The notes below the pieces were generated by a model. The model was not told the origin of the DNA. It ran no database searches and worked only from the letters and a program-made list of their open reading frames with translations. From a bacterium (lineage in GTDB: Bacteria; CG2-30-53-67; CG2-30-70-394), in contig DASWHD010000135.1 in the NCBI GenBank assembly GCA_036393335.1, positions 14,405 through 78,404 on the forward strand: a stretch of DNA of 64,000 nt. Reading direction: 5' to 3'. Position numbers and translations under genes: made by a program. This document shows, in pieces, positions 16,717 through 36,078 of the stretch. Positions within the stretch are counted from its first letter, which is position 1. Every line of letters starts with the position of its first letter.

Positions 16717-16735
16717 GCCGGCAAGAGTTGCCGGC
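16717..16735. promoter_or_regulatory. Perfect palindrome GCCGGCAA-gag-TTGCCGGC in the divergent fliK-like / flgF intergenic region
   Basis: 8-bp arms with a 3-bp spacer, ~100 bp upstream of the sigma-54 promoter; a candidate dimeric regulator site (e.g. for an enhancer-binding protein). Confidence 0.35.
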
Positions 16736-16832
16736 GGCTTGGCCACAGCGGGTGGGTAACTCCCTGTCGTATCGGAGAGAAACCCATTGGAGGTCCGATG
16801 GATCTCGGGCCCGTGTGGCGGTTTTTTTGGTA

Positions 16833-16848
16833 TGGCATAACGCTTGCT
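16833..16848 (+). promoter_or_regulatory. Sigma-54 (RpoN) -24/-12 promoter: TGGCAT-N5-TTGCT
   Basis: TGGCATAACGCTTGCT fits the TGGCAC-N5-TTGCW consensus with correct GG-N10-GC spacing; it lies ~55 bp upstream of the flgF start. Confidence 0.5.
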
Positions 16849-16902
16849 CCAAGGCGACGACAGGCGCTGCCTCGTCGTGCATCCGTCGCCTCGGATTTCT
16901 CT

Positions 16903-17619: not shown

Positions 17620-17639
17620 CCGCAAGGTAAGGAGCCACG

Positions 17640-18428: not shown

Positions 18429-18434
18429 CCGATC

Positions 18435-19190: not shown

Positions 19191-19213
19191 TCGGGTTGTC
19201 GAAGGCGTGGCCA

Positions 19214-19993: not shown

Positions 19994-21195
19994 CAATCGA
20001 TTCTCCCCGTAGGGGAGTCCTCAGGGGCTCTCTCCCTCTGGGACCGGGACGGGGTGAGGGTGTGTGGCACCATCGCCGGTCTCCACTTCGTCTCGCCCGG
20101 ACCGCCGTGGTAGGTTTCCTCCTCCTCTCCCTGGCCGCGGCGGCCCGGAGTGAGGCGACGCGGTTGAAGGACTTGGCCGACCTCACCGGCGTGCGCAACA
20201 ACCAGTTGATCGGTTACGGCCTGGTCGTCGGCCTGGACGGCACCGGCGACGGCGTGAAGAGCACCTTCACGCGCCAGAGCCTGACCTCGATGCTGCGGCG
20301 GGTGGGGGTGACCGTGGATGCCGAGGCGTTGAAGGTGGAGAACATTGCCGCGGTGGTGGTGACCGCGACCCTGCCGCCATTCGCGCGCCAGGGCAGCCGC
20401 GTGGACGTGACGGTCGCCAGCATCGGCGACAGCGAGAGCCTGCTCGGTGGAGTCCTGCTGATGACGCCGCTCGCGGGGATCGATGGCGAGGTGTACGCGG
20501 TTGCCCAGGGGCCGGTCTCGATCGGTGGCTTCTCGTTTGGCGGACGCGGCGGGGGAGGGGTACAGAAGAATCACCCGACCTCCGGCCGGATCGCCAACGG
20601 TGGATTGGTGGAGCGCGAGGTGCCGGTCGAGTTCGCGGCACTGGAGCAGTTTCGCTATGCCCTGCACGAGCCGGACTTCACCACCGCGCAACGCACCGCC
20701 ATCGCGATCAACGAGCACTTCGGCATCGAGGTGGCACACCCGACCGATGCCGGCACCATCGAGGTCGAGGTCCCCGCCGACTACCGCGCGCAGCCGGTAC
20801 TCTTTGCCGCGGCCCTGGAGTCCATCGACGTCCACCAGGATCGCGCCGCTCGGGTGGTGCTCAACGAGCGTACCGGCACCGTGATCATGGGCCAGGACGT
20901 GCGCCTCTCCACCGTCGCCATCTCCCACGGTGGCCTATCGATCACCATTACCGAGACCCCTGTCGTGTCGCAGCCCAATCCCCTGTCGCGGGGCGGGCAG
21001 ACGGTGGTGGAGACCCAGTCGCAGGTCGAGGTGACGCAGGAGGAGCGGCGCCTGATCATGGTGGAAGAGGGCGTCAGCCTGGCCGAGGTGGTCCGGGCAT
21101 TGAACGCCCTCGGTGTCGGCCCGGGCGACTTGATCGCTATCCTGCAGGCGGCGAAGGCGGCCGGCGCACTGCACGCCGAGCTGGAGCTCATCTGA
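19981..21195 (+). CDS. flgI: Flagellar P-ring protein FlgI
   Basis: Signal peptide then RLKDLADLTGVRNNQLIGYGLVVGLDGTGD... (FlgI). Start could also be GTG 20063; ATG 19981 overlaps the flgH end. Confidence 0.85.
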   Translation: MALLTIDSPRRGVLRGSLPLGPGRGEGVWHHRRSPLRLARTAVVGFLLLSLAAAARSEATRLKDLADLTGVRNNQLIGYGLVVGLDGTGDGVKSTFTRQSLTSMLRRVGVTVDAEALKVENIAAVVVTATLPPFARQGSRVDVTVASIGDSESLLGGVLLMTPLAGIDGEVYAVAQGPVSIGGFSFGGRGGGGVQKNHPTSGRIANGGLVEREVPVEFAALEQFRYALHEPDFTTAQRTAIAINEHFGIEVAHPTDAGTIEVEVPADYRAQPVLFAAALESIDVHQDRAARVVLNERTGTVIMGQDVRLSTVAISHGGLSITITETPVVSQPNPLSRGGQTVVETQSQVEVTQEERRLIMVEEGVSLAEVVRALNALGVGPGDLIAILQAAKAAGALHAELELI

Positions 21196-21530
21196 TGCAT
21201 CCGATCCTCGTGCCGTCGCTGCTGACCCAGCCGCTCGATCCCTCGCCGGCCGCGGCCCAGCGGCGCGACTCCCCACAGGCCCTGCACAAGGCGGCGCAGG
21301 ACTTCGAGTCCCTCTTCATTCACATGATGTTGAAGGCCGGTCGGGAGAGCGTCGGGGATGGCGGGATCGTGCCGCGCGGGAGCGGCGAGCGGTTCTTCAC
21401 CGATGTGCTCGACCAGGAGTTGGGCCGGCTCGCGGCCCAGCAAGGGGGATTTGGGATCGCACGGCAACTGGAAGAACAGTGGAAAGGAGCGGTAACCCAT
21501 GACGGCAACGGTCCAAGCTCTGCCCCATGA
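21195..21530 (+). CDS. flgJ: Rod-binding protein (FlgJ N-terminal domain only; no muramidase domain)
   Basis: AAQDFESLFIHMMLKAGRES is the Rod_binding/FlgJ-N signature; only 111 aa. Confidence 0.7.
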   Translation: MHPILVPSLLTQPLDPSPAAAQRRDSPQALHKAAQDFESLFIHMMLKAGRESVGDGGIVPRGSGERFFTDVLDQELGRLAAQQGGFGIARQLEEQWKGAVTHDGNGPSSAP

Positions 21531-22035
21531 TGCGCTGGCGTCGTTCAACGCCCTGCTGCGCCGGATGGAAGAGGAGGCACGGCTGTTCGAGCGGCTGGCG
21601 GGGCTCCTCGATAGCGAGCGCGACGTCCTTCGCAACCTGCGTGCCCCGGGGCTCAAAGAACTCAACGCCGAGAAGGAGCGGGTCCTGATCCTCATTGACC
21701 GGGTGGCTGCGGCGCGGGCGGATACCCTGGAGGAGCTCACCGAACGGCTGGGTCTGAAGAGCGAATCGCCGCACCTGGCGGAGCTCCTCGATCGTTTGCC
21801 GGCGGTCGAGACCCGGTGCCTGGATGAGGCGCGGCGCCGGCTGCTGCGGGTCGCAGAAATGGTGCGCGCGCGGGGCGAGGTCTCGGAGCGGCTGCTCTCG
21901 GTATCGCTCGACGCGATTCATGAAATACTTCAGTTGCTGCGCAAAGAGAACGAGGAGTCTGCACAGACATACGGCGACCAAGGTGCCGTGACGGCGCCGC
22001 GGGGCACCGGCATGGTCGTGCGTCAGACGGCTTGA
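21499..22035 (+). CDS. FlgN-like flagellar export chaperone
   Basis: All-helical 178 aa with a FlgN-like leucine-heptad pattern; directly upstream of flgK-flgL, the usual FlgN clients. Confidence 0.45.
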   Translation: MTATVQALPHDALASFNALLRRMEEEARLFERLAGLLDSERDVLRNLRAPGLKELNAEKERVLILIDRVAAARADTLEELTERLGLKSESPHLAELLDRLPAVETRCLDEARRRLLRVAEMVRARGEVSERLLSVSLDAIHEILQLLRKENEESAQTYGDQGAVTAPRGTGMVVRQTA

Positions 22036-22047
22036 ACGAGAGGCAAT

Positions 22048-23712
22048 ATGGGCATCTCCGGCATTCTCGACATGGGGCGACGAGCCCTCGAGATGGCCCA
22101 GATGCGCGTGCAGACCACCGCGCACAACATCTCGAATGCCGCCACCGACAGCTATAGCCGGCAGATCGTGCTCTCGCAGACGACCCGGCCCCAGCTTGTC
22201 CAAGGAGGCCTGCTCGGCACCGGCGTCCAGCCGGACACGGTCGAGCGGATCACCTCGCGATTTCTGGAAAATCAGCTCCTCGCGGAGCGCCAGGTGAAGG
22301 GACAGCTCGACCTGCTGGCCACCGCCTTCAGCCACGTCGAGGAGGTGTTCAGCGAGTCGCAGGTCGGCGGGTTGTCCGAGGCGATGTCGGCGTTTTTTGC
22401 CTCCTGGCAGGACCTGGCCACCAACCCGGAAGGGGTGGCGGAGCGCCAGGTGCTGGTCTCCCAGGCCGGGGCCCTGACCCGGCAGTTCTCCCTCTATGCC
22501 CAGGGATTGGCGCGCGTGAGCACGGACATGCTCGCCGATCTCAAGAGCTCGGTCGCGACCGTCAACGAGATCACCCTACGGATCACGGAGACCAACAAGG
22601 CGATCGTCTCCGCCGAGGCGGGTGGGCAACCCGCCAACGACCTGCGGGATAGTCGCGACCGGCTCCTCAACGAGCTGGCCAACCTCACGGAGTTTTCCGT
22701 GATCGATAACGGGGAGGTGAACGACTTCACCGTGCAGGTGCGGGGCCAGACCCTCGTGCAGGGGGTGCGGCGGCAGTCGATCACCGTCGTGGATGACGGC
22801 TCCGGCTCGCCATCGCTCGCGGTCGAGCAAGGCGCGGGCTGGCGGACCTTCTTCGCTCTGCCGGAGCTGGGTAGGATCGGCGGCGCCCTGTCGGTGCTGC
22901 GCGAGTCGCTGCCCGCGGCGGAAGAGGGACTCAATGAGGTCGCAGTATTCCTGGCGGCCAACGTCAACGCCTACCACCGGCAGGGCTATGCGATCGATGG
23001 CACGACCGGCCTCAATTTCTTTCTCAGCCCGATGCAGGGAGCACCGAATCCGGCGAACACCGGCGGCGCGATGATCACATCCACGCCAGTGGTCGATGGC
23101 ACGCAGTTCACCGCCCATCGCTACGAGATATCGTTCGTGGCCGCCGACAGTTACCAGGTCACTGACGTCGACACCGGCGCAGTGGTGGTGCCGGCAGCGC
23201 CGGCAAACTACGTGAGCGGCAATCCCATCCTCTTCGACGGCGTGTCCGCGACGATCACCAATGGCGGCGGTCCCCCGGCGGCCGGGGATCTCTTCGTGGT
23301 GGACATCAACCCCAGTTATTTCAGCTCGATCGCGGTCGATTCAGCCATCGAGACCAACCCCCAGCGCGTGGCCGCGGCCTTGTCGTTGACCGGTCTTCCG
23401 GCAGACAACGAAAATGCCCTGAGGATCGCCTCCCTGGACAGTCAGGCGATCATGTCCGGTGGCACCGGCACGCTGATCGACTCGCTCTCCAGCCTGGTGT
23501 CGCAGGCGGGTATCGACTCCAGCCGCGCCACCGTGGGGCTAGAACGGCAGTCCTTGGTGGTCGATCAGGTCCTCGCCCAGCGCGAGGCGGTCTCCGGCGT
23601 GTCCATCGACGAGGAGGCCGCCAATCTCGTCGAGTTCCAGCGCTCCTATCAAGCCGCGGCCAGGGTCATTACCACGGTCGACCGGATGTTGGAGACCCTC
23701 CTGAACACGTAG
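22048..23712 (+). CDS. flgK: Flagellar hook-associated protein 1 FlgK
   Basis: N-terminus GISGILDMGRRALEMAQMRVQTTAHNISNAATDSYSRQ and C-terminal flagellin-like helix; 554 aa. Confidence 0.85.
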   Translation: MGISGILDMGRRALEMAQMRVQTTAHNISNAATDSYSRQIVLSQTTRPQLVQGGLLGTGVQPDTVERITSRFLENQLLAERQVKGQLDLLATAFSHVEEVFSESQVGGLSEAMSAFFASWQDLATNPEGVAERQVLVSQAGALTRQFSLYAQGLARVSTDMLADLKSSVATVNEITLRITETNKAIVSAEAGGQPANDLRDSRDRLLNELANLTEFSVIDNGEVNDFTVQVRGQTLVQGVRRQSITVVDDGSGSPSLAVEQGAGWRTFFALPELGRIGGALSVLRESLPAAEEGLNEVAVFLAANVNAYHRQGYAIDGTTGLNFFLSPMQGAPNPANTGGAMITSTPVVDGTQFTAHRYEISFVAADSYQVTDVDTGAVVVPAAPANYVSGNPILFDGVSATITNGGGPPAAGDLFVVDINPSYFSSIAVDSAIETNPQRVAAALSLTGLPADNENALRIASLDSQAIMSGGTGTLIDSLSSLVSQAGIDSSRATVGLERQSLVVDQVLAQREAVSGVSIDEEAANLVEFQRSYQAAARVITTVDRMLETLLNT

Positions 23713-23816
23713 CCTCGATCAGCCGATACGGTTGATGGGCAGCCACGGATCTCGAGCGCCGAGACGGCCTGTCCCAGGGCCAGGCAAGAAGCACAGTTGG
23801 GTCGGTGGATTAGCCG

Positions 23817-24989
23817 ATGATTCGCGTCACACAGACCGTTTTCTTGAACAACATCCGCAGCCAGCTCGCGCGCAACGGGCGGCGGTTGGCGATCGCGCAG
23901 GAGCAGGTCGCTACCGGCAAGCAGGTCAACCGCCCGTCCGACAACCCTACCGGCGCCTTTCGCGTTCTCAGCCTCAAGCAGCTCACGGCAGCGAACGACC
24001 AATTTGAGCGCAACCTCGACTCATTGGAGGCGAATCTGGGGGTTGCAGAGAATGTCCTGGGGCAGACCCAGGAGGTTCTCTATCGCACGCTGGAGCTGGC
24101 GATCCAGGCGGCCAATGCATCGGTGGACCGCAGCCAACGCGCCGTGATCGCGACCGAGGTGTCGCAGCAGCTCGACGAGGTCAAACGCCTAGGGAACACG
24201 CAGCTCGGCGCGCGCCACCTCTTCGCTGGCTATCTCAGCGACAAACCGCCCTTCATCCGTGACCTGCAGATTTCTGCCAGTGCCGGCAACACGGGCACCG
24301 GTACCATTGCGGTGGGTATTTTCGACGGAGACGCCGTCGGGGGGTCACGCTACGAGATTCGCTTCACCGATCCCGCCACCTACGAAGTCTTCGAGGCCGG
24401 CACGGGCCTGACGGTGGCCAGTGGTACGTACACCACCGGTGCGCCGATTGACTTCGATGGCAACGGCAACGAGGTCGTGATCGACGGCGCACCGGCGGCG
24501 GGGGACAGCTTCCGCATCGTGCCGCGCATGGTCTACCGGGGGGACAGCAACGAGATCATGGTGCCGGTGGGCGAGGGCCAAAGGGTGGCGGCGAACGTGC
24601 GCGGCCATCAACTCTACCTAGGCGACGGTAACCTCGATGGCACCGCCGACGCGGGGCGTGTGAGTGTCTTCGCGGCGCTGGAGGACCTTAAGTTCGCTCT
24701 GGAGGACGACGATCAGGCGGCCATTCAAGCGGTCATCGATCAACTCGATGGGGCCGTCGGACAGATGAGCGAGGGGCGCGGTATCATCGGAGGCCGGCTG
24801 AACTTGGTCGACTCCGCCAAGCAAGATCTTTCCCAACGGAATTTGACGATCGAGGGGCTGCGGTCCGAGATTGAAGACGCCGACATGGCAGAGGCGATCA
24901 CGCGCCTGACGCAAGTGGAATCGGTCTTTCAGGCGACCCTGGGTACGGCCGCCAGAGTCCTACAGCGATCGCTCTTGGATTACCTATAG
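23817..24989 (+). CDS. flgL: Flagellar hook-associated protein 3 FlgL
   Basis: Flagellin-like N-terminus (MIRVTQTVFLNNIRSQLARN...RPSDNPTGA) and C-terminus; follows flgK. Confidence 0.8.
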   Translation: MIRVTQTVFLNNIRSQLARNGRRLAIAQEQVATGKQVNRPSDNPTGAFRVLSLKQLTAANDQFERNLDSLEANLGVAENVLGQTQEVLYRTLELAIQAANASVDRSQRAVIATEVSQQLDEVKRLGNTQLGARHLFAGYLSDKPPFIRDLQISASAGNTGTGTIAVGIFDGDAVGGSRYEIRFTDPATYEVFEAGTGLTVASGTYTTGAPIDFDGNGNEVVIDGAPAAGDSFRIVPRMVYRGDSNEIMVPVGEGQRVAANVRGHQLYLGDGNLDGTADAGRVSVFAALEDLKFALEDDDQAAIQAVIDQLDGAVGQMSEGRGIIGGRLNLVDSAKQDLSQRNLTIEGLRSEIEDADMAEAITRLTQVESVFQATLGTAARVLQRSLLDYL

Positions 24990-25053
24990 CTCGGAAATGG
25001 ATTTCCCATACGGTATCCATAAATGGCGCCTACGGTGATCCGGAAAGGAGCGC

Positions 25054-25302
25054 ATGTTAATTCTGACAAGGAAGTCAGGACAGACGATCGTCATCGGCGG
25101 AGGGGTGCAGATCAAGATCCTGGAGATTCGGGGAAAGCAGGTCCGCATCGGGATCGACGCGGCGCCCGAGGTGGCCGTCTACCGGGGTGAGCTCTTCGAG
25201 CTGATGCAGGAAGAGAATCGGCGCGCTGCCAAGAGTCAAAAGAGCGGCCTGGCAGGTCTCGTGCAGAGTATGAAGCCACGGGGGAAGAAAACCGATGGCT
25301 GA
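25054..25302 (+). CDS. csrA: Carbon storage regulator CsrA
   Basis: MLILTRKSGQTIVIGGGVQIKILEIRGKQVRIGIDAAPEVAVYRGELF is the canonical CsrA; RBS GGAAAGGAG. Confidence 0.9.
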   Translation: MLILTRKSGQTIVIGGGVQIKILEIRGKQVRIGIDAAPEVAVYRGELFELMQEENRRAAKSQKSGLAGLVQSMKPRGKKTDG

Positions 25303-25327
25303 CGCGCGACCGCAGGGGGAGGAGCAG

Positions 25328-25780
25328 ATGAGGCGAATACGGAGCAACCAGCTCGGTGACATCGCGGTGGCCGACGAGGCGGTGATCCACTTCCTTGAAG
25401 GGATCCCCGGGTTCGAGGAGTGCCACGACTTCGTCCTCATTGAGGACGAAGAGATAACCCCCTTTCGCTGGCTCCAATCCCTGGACGACGGCGCGATCGC
25501 CTTCATCGTCGTCGATCCGGTCATCATCTTCCCCGGCTACCAGGTAAAACTCGGGCCCGCCGAGACGGCGGCGATCCGCCTCACCGACGCCAAGCGTGCC
25601 CAGGTACAGGTCATCCTTACGATCAGCGAGGACCCGGAGAAGACTACCGCCAACTTGCAGGGGCCTCTGCTGATCAACGCCGAGAAAAACCTCGGCTGCC
25701 AGGTCCTCCTCACCCGCTCCCTGTACGAGACGCGCTACCCGGTCATGCAGGGACTCGCCGCCGCAGGCCGCACCCGCTAG
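25328..25780 (+). CDS. fliW: Flagellar assembly factor FliW
   Basis: IHFLEGIPGFEECHDFVLI...PFRWLQSLDDGAIAFIVVDP is the FliW signature; start at the internal ATG (MRRIRSNQLG). Confidence 0.85.
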   Translation: MRRIRSNQLGDIAVADEAVIHFLEGIPGFEECHDFVLIEDEEITPFRWLQSLDDGAIAFIVVDPVIIFPGYQVKLGPAETAAIRLTDAKRAQVQVILTISEDPEKTTANLQGPLLINAEKNLGCQVLLTRSLYETRYPVMQGLAAAGRTR

Positions 25781-27593: not shown

Positions 27594-28217
27594 TTACCAG
27601 TACACCAGCAGTCGGCCGTTCTCCACCTTGTTCTCGAACTGTTTGAGCGGCCGTTTCCCTACCTTGATGCATTTGCCCGTGCAGATGTCGAACTCCCAGT
27701 GGTGCTTCGGGCAGGTGAGGGTGTTGCCGTCCAGCTCCAGGGGGATGTCGGTGGACTGGTGGGGGCAGTGGGAGTCAAAGACCAGGAAGCCATCGCCGTT
27801 GCGGTGGACGAGGAGCTTGCGGCCGTCGGCCTCGGTGCGCACCGTCGCGCCGGACGCGACGTCGCCGCCGGCGACCACGTCGTGCCACGCGGGCTTCGTG
27901 CCGAGCATGACCGGTTGGAACTCCGGGATCTCCATGTCGAGGATGATGTCGAAGGCCCAGACGATCTTCGCCAGGCCGAGGGCCGGGAAGGCGAACAGGA
28001 TCGCGTCGATCACCTCGTCGGCGGTCGCACCCTCGCGCAGGGCCCGCGGCAGGTACTGGCGCAGCCCGCCCTCGGTCTGGACCGCGATCTTGGTGATCAC
28101 CGAGATCAGGGCGGCGGTCTTCTTGTCCAGGTGGGTGGCCGACTTCTTGAGGAAGTCGAAGTAGGCGGTCATCGCCTCGGGGCGGGTCTGGATCAGGTAG
28201 TCGAGGGATTTGCTCAT
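27594..28217 (-). CDS. Fusion protein: carboxymuconolactone decarboxylase (AhpD-like) domain plus C-terminal Rieske [2Fe-2S] domain
   Basis: N-terminal CMD-like region (KKTAALISVITKIAV); C-terminal Rieske boxes CPHQ...(17 aa)...CPKHHW. The real start is MSKSLDYLIQ (207 aa); the upstream 360 aa of the ORF are Arg-rich junk. Confidence 0.6.
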   Translation of the reverse strand: MSKSLDYLIQTRPEAMTAYFDFLKKSATHLDKKTAALISVITKIAVQTEGGLRQYLPRALREGATADEVIDAILFAFPALGLAKIVWAFDIILDMEIPEFQPVMLGTKPAWHDVVAGGDVASGATVRTEADGRKLLVHRNGDGFLVFDSHCPHQSTDIPLELDGNTLTCPKHHWEFDICTGKCIKVGKRPLKQFENKVENGRLLVYW

Positions 28218-28460: not shown

Positions 28461-29165
28461 ATGAGTGAACAGCCCTTGCACTTTGGCCTCGCCGGTCCGG
28501 AGTCCATGCCGGACCACGGCCAGCCGGCCGACTCCCCCCAGCGCCAGCGCGCCGCACTCCAGCGGGGCCTGAAATTCGTCGGTCCGGATCAACCGGCCCG
28601 CCGGGCCGAGCTGCTGGTGGCCCTCGGCAGGGTAGAAAACGAGCTCGGCAATTCCCCCGCGGCGTGGGAGGCGGCACGCTACGCCTTCGCGATCTGTGCG
28701 GGGATCGAGAACTGGGTCGGAGCGGTGGAGGCGTGCGACGCCCTGTTCGAGTCGGGCCAGCCCGAGGCACTCAAGGCCCTGGCCCACGGCCTGTGGCTCG
28801 CCGTCACCTATCCCATCGATCCGGAGCTCTCCGTCGGCCTCCTCGGCCACTTGGTGGAGGAGGCGGCCCACGACGACATCGGCGCGGTGGCCGCGACTAC
28901 GGCCAACTACGTGGCACAGATGCGCGCCCCCGCGGGAGAGGCCGGGGAGCGGGTGCAGGAGAAGGCCGCACGCATGCTCAACGCGGTGGCGTGGACCCAC
29001 GGCAAGGTGCACGACGAGCGCGATTTTGAGATCTGGTACAAGACCAATCAACTCGACGACCCGGGCGTCTTCCTCCCCATCCTCTCCCAGGCATTGGACA
29101 AGATGGTGGACGGGGAGTGGTGGATCGATCGCGACGCGCTGCGGGCGAAGCTGCCGGCCGAGTGA
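28461..29165 (+). CDS. Hypothetical alpha-helical protein (234 aa)
   Basis: Strong GC3 bias and a clean intergenic context; no family recognised. Confidence 0.4.
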   Translation: MSEQPLHFGLAGPESMPDHGQPADSPQRQRAALQRGLKFVGPDQPARRAELLVALGRVENELGNSPAAWEAARYAFAICAGIENWVGAVEACDALFESGQPEALKALAHGLWLAVTYPIDPELSVGLLGHLVEEAAHDDIGAVAATTANYVAQMRAPAGEAGERVQEKAARMLNAVAWTHGKVHDERDFEIWYKTNQLDDPGVFLPILSQALDKMVDGEWWIDRDALRAKLPAE

Positions 29166-30675: not shown

Positions 30676-31935
30676 ATGCTCAAGCTTGCCAATACCACCG
30701 ATGCCCTCCGCGCAGTCGATCCCGAGGTCGCGGCCGCCCTGGATGCCGAGCGCGAGCGAGAGAACGACACCCTGGTCCTGATCGCCAGCGAGAACTACGC
30801 CTCGGAGGCGGTGCTCGCGGCCCAGGGGTCATTGCTCACCAACAAGTACGCCGAGGGCTACCCGGGCAAGCGCTACTATGCCGGCTGCGAGAACGCCGAC
30901 ACGGTGGAGGCCCTGGCCATCGAGCGTGCCAAGCGGCTCTTCAAGGTGGACCACGCGAACGTTCAGCCGCACTCGGGCAGCTCCGCGAACATGACCGCCT
31001 ACCTGGCGGTATTGAAGCCGGGCGACAAGATCCTCGGTATGTCCCTGGCGCATGGCGGGCACCTCACCCACGGTGCCAAGGTGAGCTTTTCCGGCAAGCT
31101 CTTTTCGTCGTTCTTCTACGGTGTCGACGTGGCTACCGGACGGATCGACATGGCGGAGGTGGCGCGCATCGCGGCCATCGTCCAGCCGCGGATGATCGTC
31201 ACCGGCGCCTCCGCCTACCCGCGCTTCTTCGACTGGCAGGCCTTCCACGACATCGCCAATGAGCACAAGGCGTACCTGATGGCGGACATCGCGCACATCG
31301 CCGGACCGGTGGCCGCCGGTCTCCATCCCAGCCCGGTGGGGTATGCCGACTTCGTCACGACCACGACCCACAAGACCCTGCGCGGACCGCGCGGTGGCAT
31401 GGTGATGTGCACCGCGGAGCACGCCAAGGCGGTGGACAAGATCCTCTTCCCCGGGCTCCAGGGGGGACCACTGGTCCACACCATCGCGGCCAAGGCGGTG
31501 GCCTTGCACGAGGCCCTGCAGCCCGCCTTCGTCGACTACCAACGGCAGGTGTTGGCCAACGCCCGGGCCCTGGGCGAGCGCCTCGTGGCGCACGGCTTCG
31601 ACCTCATCTCCGGCGGCACCGACAACCACCTGGTGCTGGTCGACCTGCGTAACAAGGGGGTGACCGGCGCCGATGCCGAGGCCGCCCTGCACGCGGCGGG
31701 CCTCACCTGCAACAAGAACGGTATCCCCAACGATCCGCAGCCGCCGGTGGTGACCAGTGGCGTCCGTCTCGGCACGCCGGTGATGACCACCCGCGGCATG
31801 GGCACCGAGGAGGCGCTACAGGTCGCCGACTGGATCGACAAGATCCTGCGCGACCCGGGCGACACGGCGGTGCAGCGCCGGGTGCGCGGCGAGGTTACCG
31901 CGCTGTGCCGCCGCTTCCCGGCGTACAGCGAGTAG
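30676..31935 (+). CDS. glyA: Serine hydroxymethyltransferase GlyA
   Basis: ENYASEAVLAAQGS...VTTTTHKTLRGPRGG (PLP-lysine region); 419 aa. Confidence 0.95.
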   Translation: MLKLANTTDALRAVDPEVAAALDAERERENDTLVLIASENYASEAVLAAQGSLLTNKYAEGYPGKRYYAGCENADTVEALAIERAKRLFKVDHANVQPHSGSSANMTAYLAVLKPGDKILGMSLAHGGHLTHGAKVSFSGKLFSSFFYGVDVATGRIDMAEVARIAAIVQPRMIVTGASAYPRFFDWQAFHDIANEHKAYLMADIAHIAGPVAAGLHPSPVGYADFVTTTTHKTLRGPRGGMVMCTAEHAKAVDKILFPGLQGGPLVHTIAAKAVALHEALQPAFVDYQRQVLANARALGERLVAHGFDLISGGTDNHLVLVDLRNKGVTGADAEAALHAAGLTCNKNGIPNDPQPPVVTSGVRLGTPVMTTRGMGTEEALQVADWIDKILRDPGDTAVQRRVRGEVTALCRRFPAYSE

Positions 31936-32088
31936 GCGCCTGCGAACCGCGCCGCGTTGCGGCGGTCGGTGACCGTGGGCGCTCGCCGGTATCGAGTGGT
32001 GGAGCGGCGGAGAGTGCGTGGGCGATCCCGAGACGACCATCGCCGCGTTTCTGAGCCAGTACCTCCTCTCACCGACTGGCTCAGTCCG

Positions 32089-32127
32089 CAGGCCGGCCCT
32101 CTCCCACACCGGCCTGTCTTTTTTTTT
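32089..32127 (+). terminator. Rho-independent terminator (GC stem CAGGCCGG/CCGGCCTG plus T9), preceded by a second hairpin at 32052-32082
   Basis: The stem-loop is immediately followed by TCTTTTTTTTT, downstream of the glyA stop. Confidence 0.6.
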
Positions 32128-32143
32128 GCGGGCAGGCTGCTGG

Positions 32144-32932
32144 CTACCGCCCGTACCGATCGAGGACGCCATCCACGCCGAGACCGAAGGTCAGAACGAA
32201 ATACACGAGATCCCAGCGCTGGCCATCATCGAGGCTGTCCTCAAACGACGGCATCGGGGTGCCGTTCAGGCCGGTGGTGAAGGTCCGGTAGATGTCCGCC
32301 GGCGTGGCGCCGCCCTCGATCAACTCGGGATTCGTGAGATCCGCCGGCGGGCTCGGATTGCCGCGGTGGTCCTTGAGACCGGGGGCCGAGGGGCCGTCGC
32401 CGCGGCCGTCCGGACCGTGGCAATGCCAGCACTGGACCTTCTGCCAGAGCTCCTTGCCCCGCTCGATCGCCTCGCGGGTGGCGGGCGGTGGTTCGGGGAT
32501 GGTAATAGGCTCGGCGTGTTCCTCCGGGTCGCCCCAGCGCGGCGAGAAGGTCTTGAGGTAGTGCACCAGGGCCCAGCGCTTCTTGGAGGAGAGATCCTTG
32601 AAGGGGCGCATGTTCTTCGCCGACTCCATGGAGAGGCGGATCCCCTTGGTGAGGGTGCGGTACAGGTCCTCGTCCGCCGGCAGATAACCCGACGGCGTGG
32701 TGCGGAACTCGAAGATCGCCTCGGTGAAGTCGCGGCACACCATCCCCAGCGACTGCGCCGCCGGCCCCAGACCCTTGCCGTCCTCGCCGTGGCACTCGGC
32801 GCAGTACTGGGAGTAGAGCTTGGCCCCCTCCTTCAGGAGCTTGGGGGTGGCCTCGTAGGTCTTTTCCGCCCCCAGGGTGGGCGGGACGAAGAGGAGCATC
32901 ACGGCGGGAATCAAGGCATTCGCGGCGCGCAT
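32144..32932 (-). CDS. Periplasmic diheme c-type cytochrome (c4-like)
   Basis: Signal peptide MRAANALIPAVMLLFVPPTLGA; two CXXCH motifs (CAECH, CWHCH). The start is the internal ATG; the upstream ORF part is Arg-rich junk. Confidence 0.8.
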   Translation of the reverse strand: MRAANALIPAVMLLFVPPTLGAEKTYEATPKLLKEGAKLYSQYCAECHGEDGKGLGPAAQSLGMVCRDFTEAIFEFRTTPSGYLPADEDLYRTLTKGIRLSMESAKNMRPFKDLSSKKRWALVHYLKTFSPRWGDPEEHAEPITIPEPPPATREAIERGKELWQKVQCWHCHGPDGRGDGPSAPGLKDHRGNPSPPADLTNPELIEGGATPADIYRTFTTGLNGTPMPSFEDSLDDGQRWDLVYFVLTFGLGVDGVLDRYGR

Positions 32933-32950
32933 GGCGGACCTCGCGAGGTG

Positions 32951-32981
32951 AAAAAAAAGGGGCGGGGCATCGCCCCGCCCC
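32951..32981 (-). terminator. Intrinsic-terminator-like hairpin (GGGGCGGGGC-atc-GCCCCGCCCC followed by U8 on the minus strand)
   Basis: Perfect 10-bp GC stem; the plus-strand A8 run sits 5' of it, which becomes a U-run after the stem on the minus strand. It lies between the OMP gene stop and the cytochrome gene start. Confidence 0.5.
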
Positions 32982-33006
32982 CTGGAATGAAAGACCGGCG
33001 GGACGC

Positions 33007-34149
33007 TTAGAAGCCGAAGCGGGCGATCAGGCGGCCCTTGATCGCCTCGTCTTCGTCGTCGGCACCCGAAGAGCTCTCTTCGAAGTCGAGGAAGCGGAGC
33101 TCGGCGCCGAGCTGGACATTGGGGCGGGTGTACCAGGAGGCGTGGAGGGTCCACTGCTCGAAGTCACCGTCACCGGTAAACCCGTCGTCGCTGAGCTTGT
33201 CCCAACGGGCGCCGACCACGAAGTCGCCCACCGGGTAGAGGAGCTCGACGAGGATGTCGTCACCCTCCAGATCGTCGCCGCCGGAGGGTCCGTCCATGGT
33301 CGCGTCGAACCAGGCGAGGGTCAGAATCGCGCCGGCACCGTGGAGCTCGGCGGCGATCGACCAGCGGTCGATGTCGGCCTCGTCACCGGCGTGATGCTGG
33401 TAGTGGGCCCCGAGGGTCTGCTCCATGAAGGTCAGCTCGACGGTGCCGTAGACGCTCTCAGAAAGGTCGCTCTCGTTGCCGGGGGCACCCGCGTCGTTGT
33501 CCAGGGTGTAGCCCAGGGCATAGCGAACGGTCAGCCCCTCGTCCTCCGGCAGGATCTGACCGTTGGCCTCCAACCCGACGGCGGTGCCGAAGAAGCCCAG
33601 GTCCTCGGCGGCGTAGCCGTCGAAGACGATGGAGCGGGCGGGGGAGAGGAAGCTAAAGTCGACGTCGTAGGCGCCGGCGCGCAGGTTGAGCTGGGCCTCG
33701 CCCACCAGGTCGTTGTACTGGATGAAGACCGGCCCCAGGTCCGCGCCCTCGCCGCGCTCGAGGATGATCTCGCCGAAGGTGGAGATGCGCGGCCCGAGGG
33801 TGGTGCCCCAGAAGACCTCGACCTCCGGTTGCATGATGGTGAGGGAGTCCTCACCGCGTTCATCCTTGTCGAAATCGTCCCACTCCACCTCGATCTCGGC
33901 GAGGGCGGCGACCGGCCACGCCGGGATGTCCCAGACGTCCGTCCCCTTGGTGCCCTGGAGGCGATAACCGTTGTTTTTGAAGGTGATGCCGAACTCGTTG
34001 AGCTTCGGGAAGGCGACGTGACAGTAGGTGCACTTCTGTTTCGTTTGCCGGGCGAAGGCGGGGATCGCCTCCGCATCGTCGGGGGCGAGCAGGACGCTCA
34101 GGGGCAGCGCCAGGGCTGCCAGGAGGGGAACGAGAATGAAGCGTTTCAT
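33007..34149 (-). CDS. Outer-membrane beta-barrel protein with an N-terminal monoheme CXXCH motif (Cyc2-like fused cytochrome-porin)
   Basis: Signal peptide; CTYCH ~10 aa after the predicted cleavage site; alternating amphipathic beta-strand pattern rich in D/E/G; C-terminal ...ARFGF (aromatic terminal residue typical of OM barrels). Confidence 0.65.
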   Translation of the reverse strand: MKRFILVPLLAALALPLSVLLAPDDAEAIPAFARQTKQKCTYCHVAFPKLNEFGITFKNNGYRLQGTKGTDVWDIPAWPVAALAEIEVEWDDFDKDERGEDSLTIMQPEVEVFWGTTLGPRISTFGEIILERGEGADLGPVFIQYNDLVGEAQLNLRAGAYDVDFSFLSPARSIVFDGYAAEDLGFFGTAVGLEANGQILPEDEGLTVRYALGYTLDNDAGAPGNESDLSESVYGTVELTFMEQTLGAHYQHHAGDEADIDRWSIAAELHGAGAILTLAWFDATMDGPSGGDDLEGDDILVELLYPVGDFVVGARWDKLSDDGFTGDGDFEQWTLHASWYTRPNVQLGAELRFLDFEESSSGADDEDEAIKGRLIARFGF

Positions 34150-34267
34150 AGGAGATCCTCCATGACCGGGGGTGGTGTGCCCACGGCGCGCGACGCCGTG
34201 AACGGTGGGATGTGCCCTGCAACGCCGGGAGGTTGGCTAAATTTCATCGAATAGGTCAACAACAAGT

Positions 34268-35176
34268 TTACTGCGACGGCACGGGCATTCGGTCGGATGA
34301 TTCCGAGGTTTGCGAGAGGTCCACGGCAAACGCGGTAGTCCGCCCCGCGACGATCCCCATCCGTTGCTGGACCGCAGGGTGTGGGGGAAGCTCAAGGCGC
34401 ACCTCGTGCACCCCCGATGGCAGGTCGATGTGGAAGGGGGTGGTGCCGTAGTAGGCGCCGTCGATATACACCTGCGCCCCCGCCGGCGTGGTGTCGATCT
34501 GCAGCCCCCCCGTGGGGGGAGTGACGGGGGCAGAAGGCCGGGTACCGAGGGCGCGGAGCAGCTCGTTCCACAGGCCATCGATATCTTCCTGCATGAGCAG
34601 GGTGAGATGGGCCATGGCGGTGCCGCCGACCCCGGTGAACTGGGTGTGATCCCGGCGCGCGGTCTGCTGCCACTCCGGCGAGGCTGAGTCGGCCCGGTGG
34701 AGCGCCAAAGACAAGGCCGTGGTGAACCGATCCTCGGTCCCGGCAGCGAGCTCCAGCTCAGCGACGGTTGGCTGGAGCCACACCGCCGGCGGCGGGGTAC
34801 CGGCCGCCAGGACCCGCGCGGTCAGGCCGTGGACGGCAAGGATCGCCACCAGGCGCTCGGTCGCCCACTCTGTCACGGGTCGATCGAGACGCACCGCCCG
34901 CCGGCCGCTGCCGACGTTGTTACGGCGCCATCCCAAGGCCCGTGGATCGCTGGCCGCCGCTCCATCACCATCGCGGCCATCGATCGCCGGCGCCACCCAC
35001 ACTATGCCGCCGTCGCGCAACGCCGCCGGGGGCTCCGGCGCGGGGGCCTGGACCACCACGGCGCGATGGCCGCAGGCGATGATGAGCAGCGGGAGGAGAG
35101 ACGGGAGTAGACCGCGGCGCACAAACTCCTCGGCGTGGGAGGGTAGGTAAGCTGACCGGTCACCTAGCAGATGCAT
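34268..35176 (-). CDS. PEGA-domain lipoprotein
   Basis: Lipobox LLIIACG; C-terminal PEGA domain (LQIDTTPAGAQVYIDGAYYGTTPFHIDLPSGVHEVRLEL). Start at the internal MHLLG. Confidence 0.55.
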   Translation of the reverse strand: MHLLGDRSAYLPSHAEEFVRRGLLPSLLPLLIIACGHRAVVVQAPAPEPPAALRDGGIVWVAPAIDGRDGDGAAASDPRALGWRRNNVGSGRRAVRLDRPVTEWATERLVAILAVHGLTARVLAAGTPPPAVWLQPTVAELELAAGTEDRFTTALSLALHRADSASPEWQQTARRDHTQFTGVGGTAMAHLTLLMQEDIDGLWNELLRALGTRPSAPVTPPTGGLQIDTTPAGAQVYIDGAYYGTTPFHIDLPSGVHEVRLELPPHPAVQQRMGIVAGRTTAFAVDLSQTSESSDRMPVPSQ

Positions 35177-35364
35177 CGATCTGCGGCAAGAGGTGGCTTC
35201 CCGGGTCACCGCCGCTCCGGCACCGCCTGCCTGCCGCCATCGGCCGGGGATGGTTCCTGCTCCGGCTTGCGTTGGCGCGCTGCGCAAAATGTGGTGTGAT
35301 CCCCGGAGCGGCGGAGCAGTCGGCGTAGGCTGAACGCGGTGACCGCCACCGACCGACAGACACC

Positions 35365-36078
35365 ATGCGTCCCGATCTTCCTGCAGCCGAGACCCGCCGG
35401 GCGTTGCTCAAGGCGGTGTCGATGGCGGTGGTGCTGATGCTCCTGATCTACGGTGTGCGGCGCTCACCGTTGTCGGTCTATCTCGACCCAGAAAACCTGG
35501 CACCGTGGCAGGAGTTGGTCGGGGATGCCGGGACGTGGGCGAAGCCGCTGTTCATCGCGGTGGGCACGGTGGTCATCTCGGTGGGTGTGCCGCGCACCGT
35601 GGTGAGCCTGGCGGGCGGCATGCTGTTCGGCATCGCCATGGGACTGGTCACGGCCATGGCCGCCACCATGTTCTCCGCCATGCTGACGTTCTACATCGGA
35701 CGATGGGCGGGGCATCGCTATGTGCGGCGGCGTTTTGGTGAACGGATCGGTGAGGTGCGGCGCATGATGCGACAGCACGGCGTCGTGGCGATGATCTTGA
35801 TCCGCCAGCTACCCATCACCGCGCTGGCCAGCAACCTCCTGTGCTCGGTGAGCGGGGTGCGGGCGCGCCACTACTTTTTCGGATCCCTGATCGGGCTGTT
35901 GCCCGGTGCGATCATCTTCGTCGTCTTCGGCGCCGGGGTGCGGCGCGACTTTGGCCTGCGCGCGACGGCCGCCAGCCTGCTGTTGGTCGGCGTTACCTTC
36001 GTCGCCCTCTGGGTAGTGAATCGTACCCCGTGGCTACAGCCCTTGCGTGAGATGTTGCAGAAGGAAGACAAGGGTTGA
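35365..36078 (+). CDS. DedA / TVP38-TMEM64 family membrane protein
   Basis: Multi-TM protein with the SNARE-associated motif (GVPRTVVSLAGGMLFG...FYIGRWAG...RQLPITALASN). Confidence 0.8.
   Translation: MRPDLPAAETRRALLKAVSMAVVLMLLIYGVRRSPLSVYLDPENLAPWQELVGDAGTWAKPLFIAVGTVVISVGVPRTVVSLAGGMLFGIAMGLVTAMAATMFSAMLTFYIGRWAGHRYVRRRFGERIGEVRRMMRQHGVVAMILIRQLPITALASNLLCSVSGVRARHYFFGSLIGLLPGAIIFVVFGAGVRRDFGLRATAASLLLVGVTFVALWVVNRTPWLQPLREMLQKEDKG

What the first reader, a model, noticed from the sequence alone, without database searches (positions are those of the whole stretch)
32144..34149. Cyc2-like fused cytochrome-porin with a downstream diheme c4-like cytochrome
The 380-aa protein at 33007-34149 has a signal peptide, a single CXXCH (CTYCH) immediately after the cleavage site, then ~340 aa with beta-barrel characteristics ending ...ARFGF. 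This is the defining layout of Cyc2, the outer-membrane monoheme cytochrome-porin that acts as Fe(II) oxidase in Acidithiobacillus and neutrophilic iron oxidisers. Immediately downstream on the same strand is a periplasmic diheme cytochrome c (CAECH, CWHCH; 32144-32932), which parallels the Cyc1 (c4) partner in the cyc2-cyc1 arrangement of the rus operon. Together they would form an outer-membrane-to-periplasm electron conduit for extracellular electron uptake or release. This is unexpected inside a block of housekeeping genes.
Basis: partly seen in the sequence, partly recalled or inferred. Interest (0 to 1): 0.75.

Follow-up and report, generated by a model that had tools for sequence, protein, structure and literature searches.

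The report
Cyc2-type cytochrome-porin with diheme partner
This is a genuine member of the known Cyc2 family, an outer-membrane pore fused to a single heme that iron-oxidising bacteria use to take electrons from dissolved iron; a dedicated two-heme periplasmic carrier is encoded next to it, in an uncultured Nitrospirota-like bacterium where databases call it only 'porin'.

Summary
The gene at 33007-34149 (-) encodes a 380-aa protein with a Sec signal peptide. It carries the full Cyc2 signature AIPAFARQT-KQK-CTYCH-VAF-PKL, which holds its only two cysteines, followed by a predicted 16-strand porin barrel ending in ...RFGF. A 262-aa periplasmic diheme cytochrome c (CAECH, CWHCH) is encoded 74 bp downstream, at 32144-32932 (-).

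A profile comparison with Mariprofundus/Zetaproteobacteria Cyc2 gives 98.6% probability. The best solved-structure matches are OprO/OprP-type 16-strand porins, the templates reported for Cyc2 of strain PV-1.

The partner is not a c4/Cyc1 homologue (A. ferrooxidans Cyc1, 1H1O: E 0.11). It belongs to the family of Kuenenia Kustc0457 (PDB 6H5L_B, E 8.5e-53). Relatives of that family sit in a cbb3 oxidase operon, are fused to CcoO, or lie beside a NosZ-like gene.

The Cyc2-like/diheme pair recurs in four different genomic contexts. In one of them it directly precedes ccoN-ccoO. A conserved terminator-like hairpin lies between the two genes.

Most likely function: an outer-membrane-to-periplasm electron-uptake conduit for Fe(II), possibly Mn(II). 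Substrate and direction are inferred, not shown.

Cyc2 homologues are already known across Nitrospirota, so this is a new member of a known kind. Interest is modest.

The parts
33007..34149 (-). cyc2-like gene: 380-aa fused monoheme cytochrome c / 16-strand outer-membrane porin
   Evidence: ORF. Cyc2 consensus motif per PMC8406198. Porin_4 hit. AF2 model with 16 strands. Foldseek porin matches. hhalign against Zetaproteobacteria Cyc2: probability 98.6, E 6.7e-16.
34066..34149 (-). signal peptide (aa 1-28, predicted cleavage AEA|IP)
   Evidence: Read directly from the sequence: n/h/c regions and an AXA site. A28 is invariant in the alignments. No SignalP run was possible.
34000..34068 (-). heme domain signature AIPAFARQT-KQK-CTYCH-VAF-PKL (aa 28-50); CTYCH lies at 34018-34032
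   Evidence: Matches AXPXFAR[Q/K][T/Y] ... CXXCH ... PXL. Invariant columns are A28 I29 P30 A31 F32 A33 R34 Q35 C40 C43 H44 P48 L50. The three-residue spacing between the motif and the first Cys is shared by the Cyc2-like ORFs listed from the 80 genome loci, including Gallionellaceae and Zetaproteobacteria.
33010..33912 (-). 16-strand beta-barrel (aa 80-380) ending in the C-terminal ...RFGF beta-signal
   Evidence: DSSP on the AF2 model gives strands 80-94, 102-117, 122-131, 135-145, 155-162, 189-199, 207-217, 230-241, 244-254, 260-271, 274-285, 294-307, 310-323, 329-342, 345-357 and 368-379. OprP 2o4v has TMq 0.63. The family profile's best PDB match is OprO 4rjw.
32949..32983 (-). intercistronic terminator-like hairpin (12-bp stem, 10 G-C pairs, 3-nt loop) followed by T8, between the cyc2-like stop codon and the diheme ATG
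   Evidence: Terminator scan. Also folds in L001, L082 and L085; a different hairpin followed by a T-rich tail is present in L087. Alignment across five relatives, including L092, shows a G-C to A-T change in L001.
32144..32932 (-). 262-aa periplasmic diheme class-I cytochrome c (CAECH at 32789-32803; CWHCH at 32417-32431), Kustc0457/CcoO-extension type
   Evidence: Pfam 2x Cytochrome_CBB3. PDB 6H5L_B at E 8.5e-53. More than 1380 family members, many fused to FixO. Orthologues follow the Cyc2-like gene in L082, L085, L086, L087 and L088.
34268..35122 (-). upstream PEGA-domain protein, a probable lipoprotein (start uncertain: GTG at 35122 gives 284 aa; the longest ORF runs to 35287). Its membership of the unit is uncertain.
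   Evidence: PEGA at E 1.7e-15. It lies upstream of the Cyc2-like gene in the close relatives L082, L083 and L085 (271-283 aa), but is absent in L086.

Best explanation
The two genes encode an outer-membrane-to-periplasm electron conduit of the Cyc2 type.

Shown by computation:
- The 380-aa protein has a Sec signal and one c-type heme site inside the complete Cyc2 signature.
- The heme domain is about 50 residues and mostly helical. It is followed by a 16-strand porin barrel with a C-terminal Phe.
- The next gene encodes a secreted diheme cytochrome c with two CXXCH sites and two conserved Met candidate ligands.
- This gene pair is kept together in unrelated genomic neighbourhoods.

Inferred from established knowledge of Cyc2 (A. 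ferrooxidans Cyc2, Leptospirillum Cyt572, M. ferrooxydans Cyc2PV-1):
- After export and heme attachment to Cys40/Cys43, with His44 as the proximal ligand, BAM inserts the barrel into the outer membrane.
- The small heme domain sits in or under the pore.
- Dissolved Fe2+ reaching the heme gives up one electron. Another soluble one-electron donor such as Mn2+ is possible.
- The electron passes to the downstream diheme cytochrome in the periplasm.

The likely onward route follows from where relatives of the diheme family are found. In other organisms they lie in a cbb3 oxidase operon, are fused to CcoO, flank a NosZ-like gene, or are bound to an HAO-like nitrite reductase. The carrier therefore most likely hands the electron to a terminal oxidase or reductase encoded elsewhere in this genome.

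The conserved hairpin plus T-tract between the genes probably lowers read-through, so that more porin-cytochrome than carrier is made. This would fit the very high cyc2:cyc1 expression ratios reported for iron oxidisers.
For: Family membership:
- The motif AIPAFARQT...CTYCH...PKL equals the published Cyc2 consensus plus PXL. It is invariant across homologues.
- A genome scan for AIPAFARQ[VTY] returned 338 stretches, of which 299 were confirmed as relatives. They include Gallionella/Gallionellaceae, Zetaproteobacteria and Mariprofundaceae.
- The N-terminal 59 aa are 47% identical to two M. ferrooxydans proteins.
- hhalign against a Zetaproteobacteria clade gives probability 98.6 and E 6.7e-16 over aa 1-127.

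Fold:
- The AF2 model has 16 strands and pTM 0.77.
- Foldseek top hits are 16-strand porins; OprP has TMq 0.63.
- The family profile's best PDB sequence hit is OprO 4rjw, with OprP 2o4v also listed. These are the templates reported for Cyc2PV-1.

Partner linkage:
- A diheme orthologue follows the Cyc2-like gene in the syntenic relatives L001, L082 and L085.
- It also does so in L086, where the Cyc2-like protein is 52% and the diheme 61% identical and the flanks are EPSP synthase and a histidine kinase.
- The same holds in L087, at 33% and 28% identity.
- In L088/L089 the order is Cyc2-like (32%, E 3e-23), diheme (37%, E 2e-60), a second diheme, CcoN, CcoO, a P-type ATPase and a Fer4 protein.

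Role of the diheme family:
- 6H5L_B is the diheme chain of a Kuenenia HAO-like complex.
- Many relatives are fused to FixO/CcoO.
- One relative lies beside NosZ-like and NosR/NosD genes.

Hairpin.

Literature:
- Cyc2 homologues occur across Nitrospirota (PMC9040806).
- One Nitrospirota Cyc2 oxidised Fe(II) when expressed in E. coli (PMC13647500).
Against: - There is no experimental data for this protein: heme loading, localisation, substrate and direction of electron flow are all inferred.
- Outside the first ~127 residues there is no detectable sequence similarity to functionally tested Cyc2s.
- In a rough NJ tree the window clade sits on its own long branch, outside the Zetaproteobacteria/Gallionellaceae group that corresponds to Cluster 1. 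The authors of the Cyc2 phylogeny state that function in divergent clusters is the least certain.
- At 380 aa the protein is shorter than most Cyc2s (most are 400 aa or more).
- No Met, and no His other than H44, lies in the ~50-residue heme domain. The sixth heme ligand is therefore unknown.
- No terminal oxidase, bc1 complex or cytochrome c maturation genes occur in the 64-kb window or in the 9 kb beyond its end.
- A strong terminator-like hairpin separates the two genes, so they could be independent transcription units.
Confidence: 0.7

Rival explanations
1. This is a Cyc2-family protein, but iron lithotrophy is not its job. It might oxidise Mn(II), as proposed for Cyc2 in Ca. Manganitrophaceae, take up electrons from other soluble or solid donors, or protect against Fe(II)/ROS. 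In these cases the diheme cytochrome would simply drain electrons to whatever terminal enzyme is available.
For: - Cyc2 homologues occur in many organisms not known to oxidise iron, including nitrifying Nitrospirales and Mn-oxidising Manganitrophaceae.
- Function in divergent clusters is described as uncertain.
- The window clade lies outside the Zetaproteobacteria/Gallionellaceae group.
- The subfamily is large and diverse: 63 clusters at E<=1e-30 and 960 at E<=1e-10.
Against: - Every Cyc2 tested biochemically so far oxidises Fe(II).
- A monoheme inside a narrow pore is argued to suit dissolved Fe2+.
- Nothing in the window points to Mn or another specific donor.
Confidence: 0.2
2. The conduit runs outward. 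Electrons from the periplasmic diheme cytochrome are passed through the porin-heme to extracellular Fe(III) or another acceptor, giving extracellular electron release rather than uptake.
For: - The architecture itself has no built-in direction.
- No oxidase lies adjacent in the window.
Against: - Relatives of the diheme family are associated with enzymes that consume electrons from periplasmic cytochromes: a cbb3 oxidase operon, a NosZ-like gene and an HAO-like nitrite reductase.
- Each heme domain carries a conserved Met candidate ligand, which would suggest high-potential hemes. That inference rests on general knowledge of class-I cytochromes.
- The Cyc2PV-1 midpoint potential is +208 mV.
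- A single buried heme cannot reach insoluble Fe(III) minerals.
Confidence: 0.05
3. This is an ordinary general porin, as NCBI annotates the near-identical protein. The heme motif would have no redox role, and the adjacent cytochrome would be an unrelated neighbour separated by its own terminator.
For: - The only Pfam hit is Porin_4.
- NCBI names the protein 'porin'.
- A terminator-like hairpin lies between the genes.
Against: - The protein's only two cysteines form CXXCH. The motif and the flanking Cyc2 signature are invariant down to 22% identity.
- All 114 full-length relatives have exactly one CXXCH.
- The gene pair is conserved in four distinct contexts.
- The family shows profile homology to Cyc2 of known iron oxidisers.
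Confidence: 0.03

Closest known systems
Cyc2 fused cytochrome-porin family (A. ferrooxidans Cyc2; M. ferrooxydans Cyc2PV-1; Leptospirillum Cyt572; Ca. Mariimomonas ferrooxydans Cyc2)
   Same: Both have a signal peptide and a single CXXCH in the AXPXFAR[Q/K][T/Y]...CXXCH...PXL signature. Both have a short heme domain fused to a 16-strand OprO/OprP-like barrel. In both, the heme domain is conserved and the barrel is highly divergent. Occurrence in Nitrospirota is already documented.
   Different: At 380 aa it is at the short end of the family. It belongs to a separate, long-branched subclade whose members have 380-420 aa and the heme-domain pattern C..CH.AFPKLNE.G..FK.NGYR. Many members of that subclade have a relaxed upstream motif. 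No functional data exist.
Cyc1 / cytochrome c4 of the A. ferrooxidans rus operon (PDB 1H1O) and Zetaproteobacteria Cyc1
   Same: It is a periplasmic diheme class-I cytochrome encoded directly after cyc2, and the presumed first acceptor of electrons from the outer-membrane heme.
   Different: It is not homologous beyond the generic heme-binding site (E 0.11 over 21 residues). It is larger (about 240 aa mature). There are no rusticyanin or cox genes adjacent.
Kustc0457-type diheme cytochromes (PDB 6H5L chain B) and the diheme extension of 'bifunctional CcoO/cytochrome c' (NCBIfam PRK14486)
   Same: Clear homology over aa 31-248 (E 8.5e-53). It has the same two-domain layout, with conserved FxFRTTxSGxLPxDxDL and TGLxGTPMPS blocks. 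Its role is that of a redox partner for a periplasm-facing terminal enzyme.
   Different: Here it is free-standing and paired with an outer-membrane Cyc2-like protein, rather than with an HAO-like enzyme, CcoN/CcoO or NosZ.
Leptospirillum Cyt572-Cyt579 pathway
   Same: It is from the same phylum. An outer-membrane Cyc2-family cytochrome passes electrons to a soluble periplasmic cytochrome and on to a cbb3 oxidase. The diheme gives a weak NCBIfam hit to cytochrome 579 (41 bits against a cutoff of 280).
   Different: The hit is far below the family cutoff. The Leptospirillum genes are reported as not clustered. This organism has about 67% GC and was recovered only from metagenomes and MAGs; nothing here indicates an acidophile.

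Membership tests
Cyc2 fused cytochrome-porin | N-terminal signal peptide | tested here: met
   MKR + 19 hydrophobic residues + AEA|IP. This is a rule-based reading only; SignalP was not available. The same layout is seen in the homologues listed.
Cyc2 fused cytochrome-porin | Exactly one CXXCH heme c site near the N-terminus | tested here: met
   CTYCH at aa 40-44. These are the only two Cys in the protein. They are invariant. All 114 full-length relatives have one CXXCH.
Cyc2 fused cytochrome-porin | AXPXFAR[Q/K][T/Y] motif just upstream of CXXCH (stated to be unique to Cyc2) | tested here: met
   AIPAFARQT lies three residues before Cys40. The criterion is from PMC8406198. The three-residue spacing is shared by the Gallionellaceae, Zetaproteobacteria and other homologues listed, and by the M. 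ferrooxydans proteins.
Cyc2 fused cytochrome-porin | PXL motif 4 residues after CXXCH | tested here: met
   CTYCH-VAF-PKL; P48 and L50 are invariant.
Cyc2 fused cytochrome-porin | Length of at least 365 aa (FeGenie/Keffer filter) | tested here: met
   380 aa. This is shorter than the 'vast majority of at least 400' noted.
Cyc2 fused cytochrome-porin | 16-strand beta-barrel porin resembling OprO/OprP | tested here: met
   AF2 model with 16 strands, pTM 0.77. Foldseek: OprP 2o4v E 9e-11 with TMq 0.63, OprO 4rjw E 3e-10. Profile against PDB sequences: best match OprO at E 0.011.
Cyc2 fused cytochrome-porin | Score above cutoff with FeGenie Cyc2 cluster 1-3 HMMs; placement in the Cyc2 tree | not testable with these tools
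   The HMMs and reference alignment are not available here. Surrogates: hhalign against the Zetaproteobacteria clade gives probability 98.6. A rough NJ tree puts the window clade outside the Zetaproteobacteria/Gallionellaceae group, but distances are saturated.
Cyc2 fused cytochrome-porin | Covalent heme, outer-membrane location, Fe(II) oxidase activity | not testable with these tools
   Requires expression, heme staining, fractionation and an anoxic Fe(II) assay.
Cytochrome c4 / Cyc1 | Sequence homology to c4-type diheme cytochromes (e.g. A. ferrooxidans Cyc41, PDB 1H1O) | tested here: not met
   1H1O_A matches at E 0.11 over 21 residues around one heme site. The best hit, 6H5L_B, has E 8.5e-53.
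Cytochrome c4 / Cyc1 | Two class-I cytochrome c domains, each with CXXCH and a Met ligand, exported to the periplasm | tested here: met
   2x PF13442/PF00034. CAECH and CWHCH are present. M108 and M227 are invariant. There is a signal peptide.
Kustc0457 / CcoO-extension-type diheme cytochrome c | Full-length homology to the family | tested here: met
   6H5L_B matches over aa 31-248 at 182.6 bits. The best NCBIfam hit is PRK14486, below the equivalog cutoff. There are more than 1380 relatives, many with FixO or EB_dh fusions.
Kustc0457 / CcoO-extension-type diheme cytochrome c | Encoded with, or fused to, a periplasm-facing terminal oxidoreductase | tested here: not met
   No oxidase or reductase is present in the window or the adjoining 9 kb. 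Relatives do show this association: L088 with cbb3 genes and L091 with a NosZ-like gene.

The most novel reading that the evidence does not exclude
The window protein and its roughly 60 full-length relative clusters may form a distinct, so far uncharacterised Cyc2 subfamily. Its members have 380-420 aa and the heme-domain pattern C..CH.AFPKLNE.G..FK.NGYR. The subfamily would have co-evolved with a dedicated Kustc0457/CcoO-extension-type diheme carrier. Together these would form a portable two-gene module that plugs an outer-membrane monoheme pore directly into cbb3-type oxidases, as laid out gene by gene in L088. In this high-GC, flagellated Nitrospirota-like lineage, the module would confer lithotrophic Fe(II) (or Mn(II)) oxidation on a group not recognised as metal oxidisers. 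Its protein is filed in databases only as 'porin'.
Probability: 0.35. Interest if true: 0.5.

Novelty: new member of a known kind. Interest (0 to 1): 0.3.

Why it matters
cyc2 is the most widely used genetic marker for microbial Fe(II) oxidation. This copy is annotated in public records only as 'porin' or 'hypothetical protein', so marker surveys that rely on annotation would miss this lineage.

The useful addition here is the partner. A Kustc0457/CcoO-extension-type diheme cytochrome travels with this Cyc2 subfamily. In one lineage it sits between cyc2 and ccoNO. This gives a concrete, testable candidate for the periplasmic step of the pathway, which differs between iron oxidisers and is poorly defined.

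The concept itself is well established: Cyc2 passes electrons to a periplasmic cytochrome, which passes them to an oxidase. Cyc2 in Nitrospirota has also been reported and tested. The finding therefore extends known biology rather than changing it.

Tried and rejected
- FeGenie Cyc2 HMMs were not available, so cluster assignment was attempted with an NJ tree of 96 sequences. Distances to everything outside the clade are 0.86-0.90, which is saturated. Only 'outside the Zetaproteobacteria/Gallionellaceae group' can be said.
- NCBIfam has no model for the Cyc2-like protein (0 hits). Pfam matches only the barrel.
- A sigma-70 promoter scan of 31800-35500 found nothing. The transcription start is unknown.
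- An Rfam scan of 31500-35600 gave only sub-threshold hits. The suhB/mmgR hit (E 0.15) is just the terminator hairpin.
- I tested whether the downstream diheme cytochromes of other Cyc2 loci (Rhodanobacter, L033, L045, L061, L074) belong to the same family as this one. They do not; similarity is only generic cytochrome c similarity at E 1e-4 to 1e-6. The specific partner is restricted to this subfamily.
- I tested whether the PEGA protein is homologous to the CarboxypepD_reg/cupredoxin-like protein upstream of the L088 cluster. Similarity is only weak (25% over 77 aa, pairwise E 7e-4). It was not used as evidence.
- The long source contig of the window protein was not returned by the exact look-up; only a 2.3-kb copy came back. 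Context was therefore taken from relatives, and from a look-up of a gene near the window end.
- I considered and rejected an MtoAB/PioAB-type porin-cytochrome complex, because there is no multiheme cytochrome and no 26-strand porin. I also rejected an alginate-export/AlgE-type barrel, because those matches are weaker, with TMq below 0.5.
Full report
**1. Observation**

Both reading frames are present at the stated coordinates on the minus strand.

The 380-aa product of 33007-34149 starts MKRFILVPLLAALALPLSVLLAPDDAEA|IPAFARQTKQKCTYCHVAFPKLNEFG... and ends ...KGRLIARFGF. A GGAGGA Shine-Dalgarno sequence precedes the ATG. The N-terminus has the n/h/c organisation of a Sec signal with an AXA cleavage site after Ala28. 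The CXXCH at aa 40-44 therefore lies in the mature protein. Cys40 and Cys43 are the only cysteines in the protein.

The 262-aa product of 32144-32932 also has a signal peptide. It contains CAECH (aa 44-48) and CWHCH (aa 168-172), within two Cytochrome_CBB3/Cytochrom_C domains.

GC3 is 0.90 for the first frame and 0.82 for the second, in a window of about 67% GC. This marks both as real genes. They are the only two c-type cytochrome genes among the likely genes of the window that have this organisation.

**2. What the 380-aa protein is**

Keffer et al. (mBio 2021, PMC8406198) define Cyc2 by these features:
- a signal peptide;
- a single CXXCH;
- an AXPXFAR[Q/K][T/Y] motif just upstream, which they call unique to Cyc2;
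- a PXL motif four residues downstream;
- a length of at least 365 aa;
- a 16-strand porin that models on OprO/OprP.

The window protein reads A-I-P-A-F-A-R-Q-T / KQK / C-T-Y-C-H / VAF / P-K-L. These positions are invariant in alignments reaching down to 21-22% overall identity.

A scan of 185,579 species-representative genomes for AIPAFARQ[VTY] found 338 stretches. Of these, 299 encode relatives of the query. They include Gallionella/Gallionellaceae, Zetaproteobacteria and Mariprofundaceae, the classical neutrophilic iron oxidisers. The ORFs listed from the 80 retained loci show the same three-residue spacing to the first Cys.

Two Mariprofundus ferrooxydans proteins align at 47% identity over residues 1-59 and not beyond. 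This matches the published description of Cyc2: a conserved heme domain and a poorly conserved barrel.

A profile-profile comparison of the window clade with a Zetaproteobacteria clade gives probability 98.6% and E 6.7e-16 over residues 1-127. That span covers the heme domain plus the first two strands.

An AlphaFold2 model (40-sequence alignment, pLDDT 75.6, pTM 0.77) has short helices at residues 31-60 and exactly 16 beta-strands between residues 80 and 379. Foldseek against the PDB returns 16-strand porins: PorB, Omp32, chitoporin, OprP 2o4v (which has the highest query TM-score, 0.63) and OprO 4rjw. The family profile's best sequence match among all PDB chains is OprO, with OprP also listed. 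Pfam sees only Porin_4 in the C-terminal half, and NCBIfam sees nothing. This explains why the near-identical public protein is named 'porin [bacterium]' (HEX9593306.1) or 'hypothetical protein'.

**3. Size and shape of the subfamily**

An exhaustive HMMER search with the window-clade profile against 1.84 billion representatives gave these counts:

| E-value threshold | Clusters |
|---|---|
| 1e-3 | 3695 |
| 1e-10 | 960 |
| 1e-30 | 63 |

About 60 clusters align over the full length.
- All 114 full-length proteins among the top hits have exactly one CXXCH, and 89 of them end in Phe.
- Many of these relatives have relaxed versions of the upstream motif (AVPSFARQ, AMPHFSRK and others). They share C..CH.AFPKLNE.G..F[KR].NG[YF]R.

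In a rough NJ tree the window clade is a long, separate branch. It lies outside the group that joins the Zetaproteobacteria and one Gallionellaceae type, which is the published Cluster 1 composition. Distances are saturated, so I do not assign a cluster.

The closest species-representative genome is a Nitrospirota MAG at 84% identity (L001). Close relatives are also labelled Nitrospirota/Nitrospirae.

**4. What the 262-aa protein is**

It is not a c4/Cyc1 homologue. A. ferrooxidans Cyc41 (1H1O) matches only at E 0.11, over 21 residues around a heme site.

Its closest solved relative is chain B of PDB 6H5L (E 8.5e-53, residues 31-248). 6H5L is the Kuenenia stuttgartiensis HAO-like octaheme enzyme. 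From my own knowledge, chain B is its diheme partner Kustc0457.

The family is large, with more than 1380 hits. Members at 40-50% identity are often fused to FixO/CcoO or to an EB_dh domain, and JGI names them 'cbb3-type subunit 2'. This agrees with the best NCBIfam hit, PRK14486 'bifunctional cbb3-type subunit II/cytochrome c'.

One free-standing relative (P0242) lies beside NosZ-like and NosR/NosD genes.

Another (P0141, 50% identical) lies immediately upstream of ccoN-ccoO, a P-type ATPase and a Fer4 protein. Directly upstream of P0141 are a paralogous diheme gene and, before that, a 409-aa Cyc2-like protein:
- The diheme is 37% identical to the window's (E 2e-60).
- The Cyc2-like protein carries AIPIFARKYNRPCYACH...PML and is 32% identical to the window protein over residues 10-170 (E 3e-23).

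This locus was reached through the cytochrome, not through the porin. It is therefore independent evidence that this diheme family connects Cyc2-type proteins to a cbb3 oxidase.

**5. Linkage of the two genes**

In close relatives (69-89% identity) the whole neighbourhood is syntenic, which says little about linkage. The pair also persists where the surroundings differ:
- In L086, EPSP synthase lies upstream and a hybrid histidine kinase downstream. The Cyc2-like protein is 52% identical and the diheme 61%.
- In L087, the identities are 33% and 28%.
- In L088/L089, the pair lies in the cbb3 cluster described above.

The upstream PEGA-domain lipoprotein is kept only in the close relatives. I list it as an uncertain part.

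Other Cyc2 loci carry different partners or none. Rhodanobacter-type loci have unrelated diheme cytochromes, and Krumholzibacteriota, Ignavibacteria and Calditrichia have 4-5-heme cytochromes upstream. The partner seen here is therefore specific to this subfamily.

**6. The hairpin**

Between the stop codon of the Cyc2-like gene and the ATG of the diheme gene lies GGGGGCGGGGCG-ATG-CCCCGCCCC followed by T8. The stem has 12 pairs, 10 of them G-C.
- The hairpin is conserved in L001, L082, L085 and L092, with a G-C to A-T exchange in L001.
- A different hairpin followed by a T-rich tail occupies the same place in L087.

I read it as a partial terminator or a 3'-stabiliser that sets a high porin:carrier ratio. 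This is consistent with, but not proven by, the much higher expression of cyc2 than cyc1 reported for Zetaproteobacteria.

**7. Mechanism**

Shown computationally: the export signals, a single conserved heme c site within the Cyc2 signature, the 16-strand barrel, the diheme partner, and conservation of the pair.

Inferred from characterised Cyc2 proteins:
- Heme attaches at Cys40/Cys43 with His44 as ligand.
- The barrel inserts into the outer membrane.
- Dissolved Fe2+ is oxidised at the buried heme.
- The electron passes to the diheme cytochrome.

Inferred from the contexts of the diheme family: onward transfer to a cbb3-type oxidase or another periplasm-facing reductase encoded elsewhere.

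Unknowns:
- The sixth heme ligand. There is no Met or second His in residues 29-80.
- The substrate. Mn(II) is a live alternative, given the Manganitrophaceae proposal.
- The terminal acceptor. None is present in the window or in the adjoining 9 kb.

**8. Comparison with what is known, and novelty**

Cyc2 homologues have been reported in several Nitrospirota lineages:
- Leptospirilla, Nitrospirales and Troglogloeales.
- A Thermodesulfovibrionia lineage, 'Ca. Mariimomonas ferrooxydans', whose Cyc2 oxidised Fe(II) when expressed in E. coli.

The scheme 'Cyc2 to periplasmic cytochrome to cbb3 oxidase' is the standard model. This locus is therefore a new member of a known kind.

What is modestly new is the identity of the partner, a Kustc0457/CcoO-extension-type diheme rather than c4, together with the portable two-gene module and its conserved intercistronic hairpin.

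**9. Verdict**

My confidence is about 0.9 that this is a Cyc2-family fused cytochrome-porin. It is about 0.7 for the conduit as described, and about 0.5 that Fe(II) specifically is the physiological donor. Interest is 0.3.

Noticed in passing
L088:1837-10870 (also L089): In an unrelated metagenomic contig, one strand carries in order: a 258-aa protein with a CarboxypepD_reg domain and a cupredoxin-like H...C-x3-H-x2-M pattern (Copper-bind only E 0.13), a Cyc2-like protein, a diheme cytochrome, a second diheme, CcoN, CcoO, two small proteins, a P-type ATPase and a Fer4 protein. This lays out a complete candidate route from outer membrane to oxidase in one cluster.
   Followed up: partly
L085:9125-10714 and L092:1164-2911: In two relatives at about 69-86% identity, an extra 402-407-aa cytochrome c plus a small ORF lies between the diheme gene and glyA, on the opposite strand. 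The cytochrome has an N-terminal CarboxypepD_reg-like region and two cytochrome c domains. The window has only about 208 bp there (31936-32143), so this gene is absent.
   Followed up: partly
window 58503-62432 and beyond the window end (L093:5555-13179): A six-gene module resembling a group-4 [NiFe]-hydrogenase or a minimal complex I. It comprises two Proton_antipo_M subunits, NuoH-like, NuoK-like, a 49-kDa large subunit, and a Fer4 protein fused to a 20-kDa subunit. This may be relevant to the organism's energy metabolism.
   Followed up: partly
window 27594-28217 (-): A 207-aa fusion of a CMD (carboxymuconolactone decarboxylase/AhpD-like) domain with a Rieske [2Fe-2S] domain. It is conserved at the same position in relatives (L082, L085, L092). 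Next to it is a conserved 234-aa protein with no Pfam match (28461-29165, +).
   Followed up: no
window 16705-25780: A flagellar gene block with basal-body-like genes, FlgK, FlgL/flagellin-like, CsrA and FliW. There are also a T2SS/T4P ATPase (113-1819) and a secretin (5811-7424). The organism is probably motile.
   Followed up: no
window 32045-32130: In the 208-bp convergent gap between glyA and the diheme gene there is a G+C-rich hairpin (GGCCGGCCCTCTCCCACACCGGCC) followed by T9 on the + strand and preceded by A9. It likely acts as a terminator for glyA and possibly in both directions. A weak sub-threshold Rfam hit (ar14, E 0.031) overlaps it.
   Followed up: no
window 34268-35287 (-): The upstream PEGA-domain protein has a lipoprotein-like N-terminus (…LLPLLIIAC). 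The longest ORF over-extends it; relatives have 271-283 aa. Its PEGA domain shows weak similarity (E 7e-4) to the beta-sandwich domain of the first gene of the L088 cluster.
   Followed up: partly
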